DNA from: Ruditapes philippinarum | Lineage: Eukaryota | Direction of reading: 5' to 3' | Length of the DNA: 64,000 bases | Assembly: GCF_026571515.1 (NCBI RefSeq) | Contig: NW_026852806.1 | Location: 62,001-126,000, forward strand | Shown here: positions 1 to 55,751 of the stretch, one piece after another | How positions within the stretch are numbered: the stretch's first letter is position 1 | Layout: each line of letters starts with the position of its first letter | Position numbers: made by a program

Positions 1-3000
1 TTATTAAATTACTTTACTAAGACGACTATTGGTTCCCTGAATTTTTCTAAAGCTCGGTTATGCATGTACAATGTTTATTACATTTTTTTTGGACAAGAAG
101 GGCTGAACATATTTTTTCGAGATTTATGCTCCATATGATGTAGGTCTAGCTTACAATATCTATGCAAAATACAGATCATAAGCTTGCTCTGTTGTGTTTT
201 GTTTTGATTTTTATGACCTAAAACTGAAAAGCCTTGTAACGCTTTTTATTCAGATCGGACTTCGAGTAACTCAAAAATATTAGCTCTCGGAATATTTTTT
301 TAATAATCTTGTGCAAATCTTTATAATTTAAATGCCCCAGCCGATCAATTTAAGAAATTCAAATTTTATGTTTTGAGATTTTTAGAACACAGTGGAGTTT
401 CTTGAAACTAGAAAAAAAACGAAAAAATTGTCACTGACATGTAAAATATACATGTACATCAATTCTTTCAAATGCTATTAAAGATTACAACATAACATAT
501 TATTTATTCGGCATAAAATGTCATAACATGCATAGCCATATCAACATATATTACACAAACATATAAAGTGCAAGTAAATGAACAAAGAAGTCGTTTGTAA
601 AAATATCTCTAACATTTTAACATTTTTGTATGTATGGCATACCTGAAGCTTGATATATAGGACCGTTATCACTCGTTTTGAACTGAACGTCCACCAGTAA
701 CGGCGTCTCATGGAGTCCGTGCAACACTATCTTTACAGTTTCTGTAGAATTCATATCCGGTAACAGATCTAACCAACCTGAGTTGAAGTCTGGCATTTTC
801 AACATTCCATCTTTAAATATAAGAACTCATGACCTTTAAACTTACAGACTCCTTATGTCAGGACAGAATATTGAAGGAAAACTGTCATTGAATGTCGAGT
901 TTTAGCACTTTTCGTACTAATGCGTTTTCGTATGAAAGTGACGTGCAATTGAAGGTAGATTGTTTAAGTAGACGACAAATAAGGACGTCTTTTTGTTTTC
1001 ATAACTTTGACTTGACAGTCCACCAAATAGAAAAATGTTCATTATTTTCACTTATACAAAAAGAGTTAGAGGTATAAATCATACATAGAAACATACCTGG
1101 ACCCAATAAATAAATTGTGAGTTGGGCAGATTCTTCATAACCATCAAACATAAAGAATTTACATTTTTTACAAATGAATAATAAAAGTTGTACCTATATG
1201 ACTTATCAGTTTATGATTTAAAAACGTATGAGAAAAAAAGGAAATAATTTTATTAACTGACAGTAGCTGTGTATGCGTCACGATTATCCAATCAAAACTG
1301 ACGTTACAAAACGTGCAAAATTATATATCAAATATATTTATGAGCCCTTGATAAAGTACTGTTATGATGTAAATCAGATCAAATGAATTTAGTTATGAGT
1401 AATTTCAAGTTATTTTATTGAAAGAAAGGTTTGATCGATACTACTCGATCCGACTTCCCGATTGCTAAATTTAACAAATAAATTCCAAATATAATTAGAT
1501 TTTTACGTTTTATAAGTATTTACAAAGTAAAGATGACTTACGTGTCACGTGAAGTAAGCCAAAGAGTAATAATCGCCATAGCAATGACCTGAAACGGAAA
1601 ATGAAAATAAAGCATTTTATCGTTAAAAGTACCAGTTTCATTTACCTTAAGAATACATGTAACATAATGATTGCGGGAGATTTATGTTTATTCGGGACAT
1701 CATTAACATTTTACCTGTTTGATATTTACAATGTCTTGCATTGAATTTAGAACAGTCTATTTTAAGTTAAAGGGATTACGATATGTTAATACAAAAAGTA
1801 ATCTATCCACAGTATGGATCCTGGACAGACTGTACATTTGTGTAGGCTGGTCTGGCTCTATACTGGTGGAACATCATTTTGGTCCTTGCAGGTTAAGAGT
1901 TAAAGTTATTTATTGAGAGTAATCTTGAGTGCAAACAATGACATATAAAATATTTGAAAAATAAGATATATTTAATAATTGTCCAAACCGTCCCTTGTTT
2001 AACCTACATAATAATGAATGAGCCCTTGTCAGTGTTCTAGACAAGAGAAATAAATTAGCAAATGAGCATCATTGAGCAAAACATATGATTGTATACACAA
2101 ATCGAGCAACAGAATATGTCAATACTTAAAGAAATGACAAATTTAAAGCAAGATATAGTACACGTTATTTAAGATTGTAACACAATAAGACATTTTGTGA
2201 AATACAATTTGATGCGGTAGAAACAATGGACACAATAAGCAATATATGTGGCATTATGCTCATTTTTTACCGTCGAGCAGACATAAAGTAGCTGGTTAAT
2301 TCACAGGATTATAAATGGGGATTGAACAAAATTTGACAATATTTAGAATAAAAAACAGAATTGTCTAAAATATAAAAAAACTGCCTCACTAATTCTATAA
2401 ATTGAACATTACCGATACTTTCCAAAAGATATGTATAAAGTTATTGGTATCAAATTTAATTGAATTAATTGTAAGCGGAGACGAAAAAGCAGCTAAGCAA
2501 CAAGTTTCATAAGATTTAGTATAGACCAATAACTTGCTTAAAGTTGTCGGCAATAACTTCTAAAGTATTTATAAGACGGCCCTTCATTCATGATTGAGCG
2601 CCATGGAATGTATATTGTCTTTTAATCAAGTCGTATCTTTATTCCTTTCAATTGTTTAATTAATGTGCACTAACTGTACTACACATTAGCCAGCAAAACA
2701 AAATTTAATTGAGTAAAAGAATATGATTTTCAAAACGTCACTGAAATTGAGCATAGATATATTGTTTTTTTGGCTATCTTATATATTTTTTACATTAATA
2801 AACTCCTAATACTCGAGAAAAATGTTTTGTGATTATGGAAAACCTTTAAGTACATGAACTGATAATGAAATGAAATTATCTTCTTTAATATGAAAATCAG
2901 ACTGAAGTACAAACATAGCTTTTGTATCGATGCATCTAAAGTGCAACTACATAACTTGATTCCTTAAACTGATAATATAATGGCTAACTTTAATATAAAG

Positions 3001-54909: not shown

Positions 54910-55751
54910 TAATTTAAACGAAAGTAAAAAGCAAAAATAAATAAATAATTAAAACTTGTAACTTACATATTGAAATTGTTGACGCTTGTCTAAAATCCAT
55001 AAATTAAAGACATGGTTACTTATTGTCTACATCAACAGACGTGAAACTGACAACTGTTAAGTTTCAATGAAAAATCATCAATTTTAAATTAAAATGATAT
55101 ACTTCAGTAGATGTAATAAGATGGTTCGACTAAACTAAGCATATCGTATTGATTGATTCGACATGGGCAGGCGCTAGATGATTTTGAACATAAGGGCGGG
55201 GAAAGGGGAGGGTTTGAGACCTGTGAGTCTTGCAATAGACAGAGAAAAATCGTAAAGTTAAAGTGTGTTTTTTTCCCTTATGATGTGATAGAAACCATTT
55301 CAATGAATTTACTATGATATTTTCAGTTTTTGTTTATTTATGATTTACAATACGAGTCTATTTTCGAAATTACCAAGGACATTTCAATTTAACGATAATC
55401 AAAACTCATAAAAAAACAGCCACACACAAAGATGAGGTTTGAAAATCAGCTATGACTGTATATTACCACAAACTTAATTAACATGCTTAATCAAACTGAG
55501 TCTGCAACAATTTCATGTTTGGCGTCTTGGGCGTTTTTAAAGGATTTGCTTTTTCACCTATTTAATATTAAGAAAAACACTAAAAACACACACTAAAACT
55601 CTGAAACGAGTGAATAATAAATAAAGATGGCTGAATTACTTTAAGGGATTTTAATTTGGAAGTGTACATTTACAGGGAATTTAAAATGCACCGTTTTTGT
55701 TGGTTTTTCTTATGTTTTGTTTTGTTTCTTGAAGTTATTTTTATTGTTGTT

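What the first reader, a model, noticed from the sequence alone, without database searches (positions are those of the whole stretch)
643..54968. Head-to-tail tandem PKD1-like paralogs with divergence clustered in the tip module
Seen: gene B starts about 10 kb after gene A's stop codon, on the same strand, with identical exon sizes (47, 168). Exon 3 is 39/55 aa identical. Differences cluster in two patches (LWTGL vs LLPDM; VKDNDYGT vs FKTSDNGP) while PDFNSGW, ETPLLVDVQ and IYQASG are invariant. Inference: a lineage-specific expanding receptor array with variable ligand-binding loops. Candidate roles by analogy with urchin REJ proteins and PKD1L3 are gamete recognition or chemosensation.
[Added by the scan's program, not by the reader: the finding's places include an assembly gap (unread letters, written N; its length is only estimated) at 9999 to 10162. 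Whether the letters on both sides are continuous or in frame is not known: test that first.]
Basis: partly seen in the sequence, partly recalled or inferred. Interest (0 to 1): 0.7.

Follow-up and report, generated by a model that had tools for sequence, protein, structure and literature searches.

The report
Bivalve PKD1-like gene, neighbouring paralog start
The window holds one complete-looking polycystin-1-like receptor-channel gene with an undescribed front domain, and 10 kb downstream only the first exons of an old, still-constrained copy, so a tandem receptor array is plausible but not shown.

Summary
Both genes lie on the minus strand. Gene A (start 54968, stop 20330) is a real PKD1/REJ-family gene: EGF x2, REJ, PLAT, Polycystin_dom and PKD_channel, plus a post-PLAT match to polycystin-1.

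Its N-terminus ('tip') is two repeats of a Pfam-less, beta-rich module. That module otherwise occurs in small secreted three-repeat bivalve proteins.

A split ATG with a shared 13-nt junction lies 10 kb after A's stop.

Two claims fail. The differences are not clustered beyond chance (p 0.20-0.73). The pair is under purifying selection (dN 0.17, dS 0.98).

Only B's 5' end is in the window. 642 nt follow its exon 3, and no other A-like exon is present. B's PKD1-like body is therefore unproven.

The gap at 9999-10162 sits in B's putative intron 1. It is non-coding, and continuity across it is untestable here.

Verdict: an ordinary old duplicate next to a PKD1-like gene. The undescribed tip domain is the most interesting part.

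The parts
54967..54968 (-). Gene A: last two bases (AT) of exon 1, the first two bases of a start codon split by intron 1. The 5' limit of exon 1 is unknown.
   Evidence: ATGTAAGT at 54968-54961. Read unsplit, ATG would be followed by TAA. Exon 2 starts with G and has no in-frame ATG.
53705..53751 (-). Gene A exon 2, 47 nt: signal-peptide-like (M)ILLRRLLLFGLFHVT
   Evidence: CAG acceptor and GTAAGA donor. 36 of 47 nt identical to B.
52674..52841 (-). Gene A exon 3, 168 nt: start of tip-module repeat 1 (PDFNSGW ... HGLQETPLLVDVQVK ... IYQASG)
   Evidence: The profile finds the family. blastp to P0013, P0015 and P0019 gives E about 1e-10 to 1e-11 in a 10-protein database.
51671..51865 (-). Gene A exon 4, 195 nt, phase 1-1: middle of repeat 1 (…GVMYIYNERVVKV…)
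   Evidence: Splice sites read. blastp to P0019 residues 85-113, E 6e-5.
51308..51529 (-). Gene A exon 5, 222 nt, phase 1-1: end of repeat 1 and start of repeat 2 (IRVRAWKSSSLP … EFEHGFGVYPDLV)
   Evidence: blastp to P0019 residues 137-193, E 2e-10.
50392..50487 (-). Gene A exon 6, 96 nt, phase 1-1: middle of repeat 2
   Evidence: blastp to P0032 residues 212-236, E 6.5e-4.
48529..50039 (-). Gene A exon 7, 1511 nt. Its first ~25 aa finish tip repeat 2. The next ~480 aa are a Pfam-less region with 15 N-x-S/T sites. Donor is TTC|GTAAGT, phase 0.
   Evidence: Two homologous ORF-type proteins, P0036 and P0037, at 61-65% identity lose similarity right after the donor. AF2 gives low confidence except for helices at about 230-390.
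47643..47916 (-). Gene A exon 8 (tentative limits), Cys-rich stretch, phase 0 to 1
   Evidence: Splice sites and phase read. The acceptor was also chosen. No Pfam hit.
46637..46750 (-). Gene A EGF exon 1, 114 nt, phase 1-1
   Evidence: Pfam EGF 5.7e-8. Splice sites read.
45735..45845 (-). Gene A EGF exon 2, 111 nt, phase 1-1
   Evidence: Pfam EGF 1e-7. Limits.
42522..42721 (-). Gene A exon with a PKD-repeat-like motif (ILWGDGS), tentative
   Evidence: Same limits in both ab initio runs. The motif was seen by eye only. No Pfam hit at E up to 1.
40965..41584 (-). Gene A REJ-domain exon, 620 nt
   Evidence: Pfam REJ 9.7e-11, model positions 6-202 of 452. Same limits.
28828..29064 (-). Gene A exon with a GPS-like CLCQGLADMVFG stretch followed by the first hydrophobic span (tentative)
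   Evidence: ORF translation and limits. No Pfam or PDB sequence hit.
27763..28423 (-). Gene A PLAT domain in two exons (about 28423-28253 and 27923-27763)
   Evidence: Pfam PLAT 1e-5 on the second exon. The first half was read by eye. Limits.
27145..27466 (-). Gene A post-PLAT membrane region
   Evidence: phmmer to polycystin-1 6a70_B residues 197-301, E 1.1e-5.
23517..23734 (-). Gene A exon with the start of the Polycystin (TOP) domain
   Evidence: Pfam Polycystin_dom 2e-7.
20330..21423 (-). Gene A last exon: rest of the Polycystin domain plus the six-helix channel. Stop at 20332-20330.
   Evidence: Pfam PKD_channel 7.9e-32, Polycystin_dom 8.8e-20 and Ion_trans 1e-14. PDB scores: PKD2 167 bits, PKD1L3 79, PKD1 43. 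'IGK' aligns to the PKD2 'LGD'.
10343..10355 (-). Gene B putative exon 1 / intron 1 junction, TCAATAT|GTAAGT, with a split ATG at 10350-10349
   Evidence: 13 of 13 nt identical to gene A's junction, E 0.005. It is the only ATGTRAGT on this strand between A's stop and B's exon 2.
9999..10162 (.). Assembly gap (164 N) inside B's putative intron 1
   Evidence: non-coding flanks, no overlap, no shared repeat.
6736..8388 (-). Reverse-transcriptase (LINE-type) fragments inside B's putative intron 1
   Evidence: Pfam RVT_1 6.9e-20 for 7287-7967, and a weak hit for 8050-8388.
1542..1588 (-). Gene B exon 2, 47 nt: (M)SLLWRLLLFGLLHVT
   Evidence: blastn 79.5% over 88 nt including flanks.
643..810 (-). 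Gene B exon 3, 168 nt: start of tip-module repeat 1. Only 642 nt of the window follow it.

Best explanation
**Gene A.** It is a roughly 34.6-kb, many-exon gene for a polycystin-1/REJ-family (PKD1-like, 11-TM type) membrane protein.
- Shown exon by exon: a signal-peptide exon, then two repeats of a Pfam-less beta-rich 'tip' module. Next comes a ~480-aa glycosylation-rich region that is continuous with the tip in one exon. After that come a Cys-rich stretch, two EGF modules, REJ, a GPS-like stretch and PLAT. The gene ends with a polycystin-1-like membrane region, the Polycystin domain and a PKD2-like six-helix channel domain.
- Inferred: the protein works as the receptor subunit of a polycystin-type complex. 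A large ectodomain would bind an extracellular ligand and gate or regulate a channel formed with PKD2-like partners. Its own pore loop has Lys where PKD2 has the filter Asp. That argues for a modulatory '1 of 4' role, as in PKD1-PKD2, rather than a homomeric cation channel.

**Gene B.** It begins 10 kb downstream on the same strand and is an old tandem duplicate of A's 5' end. Its split ATG, 47-nt exon and 168-nt exon all keep their splice sites and reading frame.
- With dS about 1 and dN/dS about 0.18, both copies have stayed under purifying selection, so B's exons are probably expressed.
- I take B to be most likely an A-like gene whose body lies beyond coordinate 1. That step is inference, not observation.
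For: **Gene A domains**
- 6 of 27 gene ORFs scanned hit Pfam above the curated cut-off. The hits are EGF x2, REJ, PLAT, Polycystin_dom, and PKD_channel with Polycystin_dom.
- Polycystin-1 match E 1.1e-5.
- PKD2 167 bits. The filter alignment is GD against GK.

**Tip exons belong to the same gene**
- Exons 3-7 are colinear with P0019/P0032.
- Exon 7 carries both the last strands of the tip and the following region in one open frame.
- Exon 7 ends at a GTAAGT donor. After it, three homologues (the window, P0036, P0037) lose similarity and stop at different distances, as read-through into an intron would.
- The phases 0>1, 1>1, 1>1 connect exon 7, exon 8 and the EGF exons.

**Duplication**
-.
- A and B share a 3-residue loop deletion against all 10 full-length family members aligned.
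- The 13-nt exon 1 junction is shared.
- dN 0.174, dS 0.98 by NG86. The other two methods give dN 0.15-0.18 and dS 0.78-1.03. With exon 2 added: dN 0.166, dS 0.94.

**At least two further exon-7-type homologues exist** (P0036 and P0037).
Against: - Nothing of B beyond exon 3 is in the window. tblastn of 214 minus-strand ORFs of A found no other A-like exon outside A.
- The tip module also heads stand-alone secreted proteins and Sushi/EGF or cadherin proteins.
- None of the 11 representative hits checked with Pfam, out of 31 hits, is PKD1-like. No annotated protein therefore confirms a tip-PKD1 fusion.
- No RNA evidence was available.
- The middle of gene A could not be modelled reliably.
- No Pfam GPS hit.
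- B's exon 1 rests on a 13-nt match and is separated from exons 2-3 by an assembly gap.
- The dN/dS estimate rests on only 55-70 codons.
Confidence: 0.5

Rival explanations
1. Gene B is a member of the tip-module family with a different body, not a PKD1-like gene. It could be a small secreted three-repeat protein like P0019, or another architecture. Only the 5' module would be shared with A, either because A captured these exons from such a neighbour or the reverse.
For: - Stand-alone proteins of 216-438 aa have a signal peptide directly followed by PD[FY]xSxW, in Mactra, Mercenaria and Mytilus.
- The module also occurs in Sushi/EGF (P0010) and cadherin (P0023) proteins.
- No PKD1-like protein is among the 31 profile hits. 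11 of them were checked with Pfam.
Against: - A and B are 71% identical, against 40-47% to the stand-alone proteins. Those proteins come from other genera, so the comparison is weak.
- A and B share a loop deletion.
- Exon-7-type (A-like) homologues exist in at least two further copies.
Confidence: 0.25
2. Gene B is a truncated, non-functional remnant: a partial duplication of A's first exons.
For: - Only three exons are visible.
- Its putative intron 1 is 8.76 kb, holds LINE fragments and contains an assembly gap. A's intron 1 is 1.2 kb.
Against: - Open frame and intact splice sites.
- dN/dS about 0.18 at dS about 1. A copy drifting neutrally since such an old duplication should show a much higher ratio, and probably stops.
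Confidence: 0.12
3. The tip exons (2-7) and the EGF-REJ-channel exons of 'gene A' are two adjacent genes that were joined by reading.
For: - No transcript evidence.
- No annotated fusion was found.
- An AATAAA overlaps the stop that follows exon 7's donor.
Against: - The GTAAGT donor, conserved in three homologues, is followed by divergent read-through tails of different length.
- The phases are compatible with the next exons.
- No supported start or signal-peptide exon lies between 48528 and 46751. Only one short ORF, seen by eye, looks like one.
Confidence: 0.1
4. The head-to-tail arrangement is a scaffolding artefact. B's exons 2-3 (left of the gap) would belong to another locus.
For: An N run of estimated length (9999-10162) separates them from everything to the right.
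Against: - An exon-1-like junction in the right orientation lies on A's side of the gap, contiguous with A.
- There is no sign of a contig-end overlap or a shared repeat at the flanks.
Confidence: 0.07

Closest known systems
[quoted passage not shown] 2007, PMC1934368; abstract read)
   Same: A lineage-specific multi-copy PKD1-family set with REJ, GPS, PLAT and up to 11 TM segments. The ectodomains are built from variable module sets.
   Different: The abstract says SpREJs frequently carry C-type lectin domains. No lectin domain was found in the 27 gene ORFs scanned here. The N-terminus is instead a Pfam-less two-repeat module. A sperm role is unknown here.
Vertebrate PKD1L3 / PKD1L2 / PKDREJ (channel-type PKD1-like proteins); PDB 7d7e PKD1L3-PKD2L1
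   Same: REJ/PLAT-type N-terminal half plus a C-terminal six-helix channel-like domain with a Polycystin (TOP) domain.
   Different: The last exon is much closer to PKD2 (167 bits) than to PKD1L3 (79 bits) or PKD1 (43 bits). The ectodomain differs. The pore loop has Lys at the PKD2 filter Asp.
Polycystin-2 (PKD2/TRPP2), e.g. PDB 5k47 and 6a70_A
   Same: Best sequence match of the channel exon, covering the TOP domain through S6.
   Different: Gene A has REJ, PLAT and a polycystin-1-like post-PLAT region upstream, which PKD2 lacks. The filter reads GD>GK.
Unnamed bivalve family of secreted three-repeat proteins (P0019 'hypothetical protein' Mactra antiquata; LOC123547547 and LOC128552900 Mercenaria mercenaria)
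   Same: A signal peptide followed by PD[FY]xSxW … HGLxExPLxVDVQVK … YGGVxYxY … VRxW repeats. A's exons 3-7 are colinear with repeats 1-2.
   Different: Those proteins stop after three repeats (216-438 aa). Gene A has two repeats, lacks the RDDD motif of repeat 1 and continues into a PKD1-like body.

Membership tests
PKD1 / REJ family (polycystin-1-like) | REJ domain (said to define the family in the abstract of PMC1934368) | tested here: met
   Pfam REJ E 9.7e-11, 41.4 bits against a cut-off of 25, model positions 6-202 of 452, in exon 41584-40965. The rest of the domain was not detected exon by exon.
PKD1 / REJ family (polycystin-1-like) | GPS motif with an HL|T-type cleavage site before the first membrane span (motif recalled, not from a call) | tested here: inconclusive
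   CLCQGLADMVFG followed by a hydrophobic span was seen by eye in ORF 28798-29115. His and Thr are not in place. There is no Pfam GPS hit and no PDB sequence hit.
PKD1 / REJ family (polycystin-1-like) | PLAT/LH2 domain after the first membrane span | tested here: met
   Pfam PLAT E 1e-5, 26.6 bits against a cut-off of 23. It lies downstream of the GPS-like exon in gene order.
PKD1 / REJ family (polycystin-1-like) | Polycystin-1-type membrane region between PLAT and the channel part | tested here: met
   phmmer to polycystin-1 6a70_B residues 197-301, E 1.1e-5. The number of membrane spans was not counted.
PKD1 / REJ family (polycystin-1-like) | C-terminal Polycystin (TOP) domain plus six-helix PKD channel domain | tested here: met
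   PKD_channel 7.9e-32 and Polycystin_dom 8.8e-20 and 2e-7.
PKD1 / REJ family (polycystin-1-like) | All these parts on one transcript | not testable with these tools
   No RNA data were available. Only strand, order and splice phases support it. The spliced model was never joined or searched as one protein.
PKD1 / REJ family: gene B | Any of REJ, PLAT or the channel downstream of B's exon 3 | not testable with these tools
   Only 642 nt follow exon 3. No A-like exon lies elsewhere in the window. No eukaryotic contig collection was open.
PKD2 / TRPP channel | Acidic selectivity-filter residue (LGD in PKD2) and absence of REJ/PLAT | tested here: not met
   The alignment to 5k47_A puts 'IGK' against 'LGD'. 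REJ and PLAT are present upstream.
Bivalve secreted three-repeat 'tip' family (unnamed) | Signal peptide followed by PD[FY]xSxW … HGLxExPLxVDVQVK, with colinear repeats | tested here: met
   A exons 3-7 and B exon 3. A has two of the three repeats. For B only the first 55 aa can be seen.
Tandem expanding receptor array | Three or more same-strand full-length copies in a row | tested here: not met
   In this window there is one full copy plus one 5' end. No PKD1-like exon lies in 1-20000 or 55000-64000. The flanks of the window could not be reached.

The most novel reading that the evidence does not exclude
Bivalves carry a tandemly duplicating subfamily of PKD1-like receptor-channels. Their sensor tip would have been captured from a family of secreted, single-chain three-repeat beta-proteins of a fold that is not in Pfam and has no convincing PDB match. 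Single repeats faintly resemble phage tail-fibre receptor-binding domains. Gene B would be a full-length second member, and P0036 and P0037 further members.
Probability: 0.2. Interest if true: 0.5.

Novelty: new variant of a known kind. Interest (0 to 1): 0.3.

Why it matters
PKD1-family proteins are sensors whose ligands are mostly unknown. Lineage-specific sets such as the sea urchin REJs are linked to fertilisation.

A bivalve PKD1-like gene with a confidently foldable but undescribed N-terminal module would give a concrete handle for ligand hunting. The AF2 model of a relative, P0019, has pLDDT 86 and pTM 0.88. It would also add a new domain family to describe.

The tandem-duplicate aspect itself is ordinary. 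With purifying selection and no clustering of changes, there is no sign of an arms-race type receptor.

Tried and rejected
**Homology searches**
- B exon 3 against longer proteins gave no hit. Only proteins of 98-2000 aa were searched, so full-length PKD1-like proteins (over 2000 aa) could not appear.
- The profile of the two exon 3 copies gave 31 hits. I treated P0002 (bacterial cadherin/RTX), P0017 (fn3 repeats), P0003 and P0027 (repetitive, judged by eye) as spurious matches to 'VDV'-type repeats.

**Gene model**
- Two ab initio splice-chain runs were not reliable mid-gene. The first skipped the EGF exons and used a transposon ORF. The second over-called exons. I kept only exons supported by homology, by both runs, or by reading.

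**Structure**
- AF2 of exon 7 gave pLDDT 44, so no fold search was run on it.
- Foldseek of the P0019 model against PDB: best hits 3h6j and 2w38 at E about 3e-4 but TM about 0.2.
- Foldseek against BFVD: phage proteins with TM up to 0.34, and one tail-fibre hit with rmsd 3.7 A over 124 columns.
- Profile against PDB: E 0.23 to the same 2w38 and 3h6j.
- Atlas: a mollusc cluster at 0.89 and phage clusters at 0.84-0.85.
- All of these are leads only. No fold assignment is made.

**RNA and Pfam**
- ARAGORN and Rfam found nothing.
- Pfam at E up to 1 on six unassigned A exons and three family proteins gave nothing meaningful.

**Papers**
- One search was badly posed, because 'rej' matched 'reject'.
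- The listings showed no paper on bivalve PKD1-like arrays. Only the outline and abstract of PMC1934368 was read.

**Not done**
Everything was done exon by exon.
The source genome beyond the window, and the contigs of P0036 and P0037, therefore stayed unchecked.
- Paper supplements were not consulted.
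Full report
**Setting**

The window has about 31% G+C and two N runs, 9999-10162 and 55847-56053. Everything in the finding lies on the minus strand. The relatives of the front module that carry a name all come from bivalves (Mactra, Mercenaria, Mytilus). I therefore take the source to be a bivalve mollusc, not human. No search or fold was done on a joined (spliced) protein.

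**The gap, tested first**

- The 164-N run at 9999-10162 lies in AT-rich non-coding DNA.
- Its flanks do not overlap and share no repeat. The longest stop-free stretch touching it is 37 codons. No exon of either gene comes near it.
- It lies 186 nt inside what would be intron 1 of gene B. Reading frame is therefore not at stake.
- Continuity is at stake. B's putative first exon is contiguous with gene A, whereas B's exons 2-3 are joined to it only by the scaffold. This cannot be tested with the tools at hand.

**The observation**

| Feature | Gene A | Gene B | Identity |
|---|---|---|---|
| Exon 2 | 53751-53705 (47 nt) | 1588-1542 (47 nt) | 36 of 47 nt, 12 of 15 aa |
| Exon 3 | 52841-52674 (168 nt) | 810-643 (168 nt) | 75.8% nt, 39 of 55 aa |

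- All four exons have canonical splice sites.
- DNA similarity spills a little into the flanks of exon 2 and then disappears in the introns.
- In both genes exon 2 starts with G and has no in-frame ATG. In gene A an ATGTAAGT at 54968-54961 supplies 'AT' before a perfect donor, and read unsplit the ATG would run straight into TAA. The start codon is therefore split by intron 1.
- The only other ATGTRAGT on this strand between A's stop (20330-20332) and B's exon 2 is at 10350-10343.
- That site shares 13 of 13 nt with A's junction (E 0.005). The upstream similarity is only borderline: 1.4% of random windows score as well.
- B's intron 1 would then be 8.76 kb, against 1.2 kb in A. It would hold LINE reverse-transcriptase fragments and the gap.
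- The quoted invariant and variable strings are all correct.

**What is not confirmed: clustering**

- With 16 differences in 55 positions, a run of four (p 0.20) is unremarkable in 100,000 shuffles. So are five differences in a window of eight (p 0.58) and the number of runs (p 0.73).
- I mapped the sites on the AF2 model of a relative. Differences hit 6 of 24 strand-aligned positions and 10 of 31 other positions (p 0.77).
- The differences do fall on columns that are less conserved in the whole family (majority share 0.45 against 0.63, p 0.023). That is what relaxed constraint predicts, not diversifying selection.
- dN is 0.17 and dS 0.98 (0.15-0.18 and 0.78-1.03 by the other two methods). 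With exon 2 added the values are 0.166 and 0.94.
- This is an old duplication with both copies under purifying selection.

**Gene A is a true PKD1/REJ-family gene**

- Of 27 gene ORFs scanned, six hit Pfam above the curated cut-off. They are two EGF exons, REJ (9.7e-11), PLAT (1e-5), Polycystin_dom (2e-7), and the last exon. The last exon scores PKD_channel 7.9e-32 and Polycystin_dom 8.8e-20.
- The ORF after PLAT matches polycystin-1 (6a70_B residues 197-301, E 1.1e-5). This region is absent from PKD2.
- The last exon is closer to PKD2 (167 bits) than to PKD1L3 (79 bits) or PKD1 (43 bits).
- In the alignment, 'IGK' stands where PKD2 has 'LGD'. That LGD is the selectivity filter is recalled knowledge, not a result of a call.
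- A GPS-like CLCQGLADMVFG precedes the first hydrophobic span. It lacks the His and Thr of the cleavage motif (recalled) and has no Pfam or PDB support.

**The 'tip' module**

- Exons 3-6 and the first ~25 residues of exon 7 have no Pfam family.
- A profile of the two exon 3 copies found 31 proteins at E up to 1e-3 in 1.84 billion representatives.
  - One is a 66-aa ORF read of A's own exon with a single difference.
  - Four I judge spurious repeats.
  - The rest form a family of exon-sized fragments and secreted proteins of 216-438 aa. A few are larger proteins carrying Sushi/EGF or cadherin domains.
- None of the 11 hits checked with Pfam is PKD1-like.
- The family has three repeats of about 120 aa, each with the motif series PD[FY]xSxW … HGLxExPLxVDVQVK … DDD..YGGVxYxY … VRxW.
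- A's exons 3-7 are colinear with repeats 1 and 2. A and B share a three-residue loop deletion against all 10 full-length relatives aligned.
- AF2 folds P0019 with pLDDT 86 and pTM 0.88 as an all-beta protein.
- Foldseek finds nothing convincing in the PDB: TM about 0.2, top hits 3h6j and 2w38. The same two entries top a non-significant profile search (E 0.23).
- In BFVD there are weak phage hits, including a tail-fibre protein at 3.7 A over 124 columns. The Atlas points the same way at lead level.
- I make no fold assignment.

**Do the tip and the PKD1 body belong together?**

- Exons 3-6 are all phase 1-1.
- Exon 7 (1511 nt) holds the last tip strands and a further ~480 aa in one frame. It ends at TTC|GTAAGT, seven codons before the frame's stop.
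- Two JGI 'hypothetical proteins', P0036 and P0037, are ORF reads of a homologous exon at 61-65% identity.
  - All three sequences keep 'VS' (GTAAGT) after the last shared Phe.
  - They then diverge and stop at different distances. That is the behaviour of read-through into an intron, not of a shared C-terminus.
- The phases fit from exon 7 to exon 8 and on to the 1-1 EGF exons.
- This makes one gene the better reading, but it remains inference without cDNA.
- Identity along exon 7 ranges from 19 of 49 to 39 of 50 per block. Divergence downstream of the tip is therefore at least as high as in tip exon 3.
- AF2 of exon 7 was poor (pLDDT 44), apart from four long helices at about 230-390.

**What gene B is**

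- The window shows only its 5' end. 642 nt follow exon 3, and tblastn with 214 minus-strand ORFs of A finds no other A-like piece anywhere else in the window.
- Intact frame and splice sites, together with a low dN/dS, argue against a dead remnant.
- The shared deletion, the 71% identity and the existence of further exon-7-type copies favour an A-like gene.
- The module's occurrence at the head of stand-alone secreted proteins keeps a non-PKD1 body open.
- My odds: A-like about 0.5, other body about 0.25, remnant about 0.12. The rest goes to a mis-join of genes or scaffolds.

**Function**

By homology, gene A should be the receptor-type subunit of a polycystin complex. The Lys at the filter position suggests a modulatory pore contribution, as in PKD1-PKD2 (inference). 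Nothing here speaks for or against gamete recognition or chemosensation.

**Comparison and novelty**

- The closest described situation is the sea urchin set of 10 SpREJ genes (abstract of PMC1934368). It is the same family with the same theme of variable ectodomains.
- There, C-type lectin domains are frequent. None was detected here, and the front module here is undescribed.
- The listings of my paper searches showed no paper on bivalve PKD1-like arrays. One search was badly posed.
- I rate this a new variant of a known kind, of modest interest.

Noticed in passing
window 20330-21423 (-): In the pore loop of gene A's channel exon, 'IGK' aligns with the 'LGD' of polycystin-2. A Lys stands at the position of the filter Asp.
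   Followed up: partly
window 28828-29064 (-): The GPS-like stretch CLCQGLADMVFG lacks the His and Thr of the usual cleavage motif and has two extra residues. It may be a non-cleaving GPS. There is no Pfam or PDB support.
   Followed up: partly
window 55847-56053: A second assembly gap (207 N) lies about 0.9 kb upstream of gene A's start, next to a long T-rich low-complexity run (55694-55796). A's promoter region is therefore incomplete.
   Followed up: no
window 57448-58477; 59216-59511; 62906-64000: There are satellite arrays upstream of gene A. One has a 145/288-bp period (about 7 copies). A 164-165-bp repeat occurs in two places and runs off the window end.
   Followed up: no
window 36796-37530 (-): A mariner/Tc1-like transposase remnant (DDE_3 E 0.0015, plus an N-terminal part seen by eye) sits inside an intron of gene A. 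The first ab initio run mistook it for exons.
   Followed up: partly
window 13324-14235 (-), 6736-8388 (-), 2994-3455 (+): Retroelement debris lies between genes A and B and in B's putative intron 1. It includes an RNase H ORF (7.8e-14), RVT_1 ORFs (6.9e-20) and a further RT-like ORF on the plus strand, seen by eye.
   Followed up: partly
window 54140-54320: A stretch in intron 1 of gene A looks tRNA-derived by eye, like a SINE head. ARAGORN and Rfam report nothing there.
   Followed up: partly
window 54447-54682 and 54864-54913: Intron 1 of gene A carries a 21/42-bp tandem repeat and an (AAT)17 microsatellite. A similar (TAT)17 lies at 10595-10645, upstream of B's putative exon 1, but not at the homologous position.
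   Followed up: no
proteins P0019, P0032-P0034 (not in the window): The stand-alone three-repeat proteins fold with high confidence (pTM 0.88) into an all-beta protein with no convincing PDB match. This bivalve domain family appears undescribed in Pfam.
   Followed up: partly
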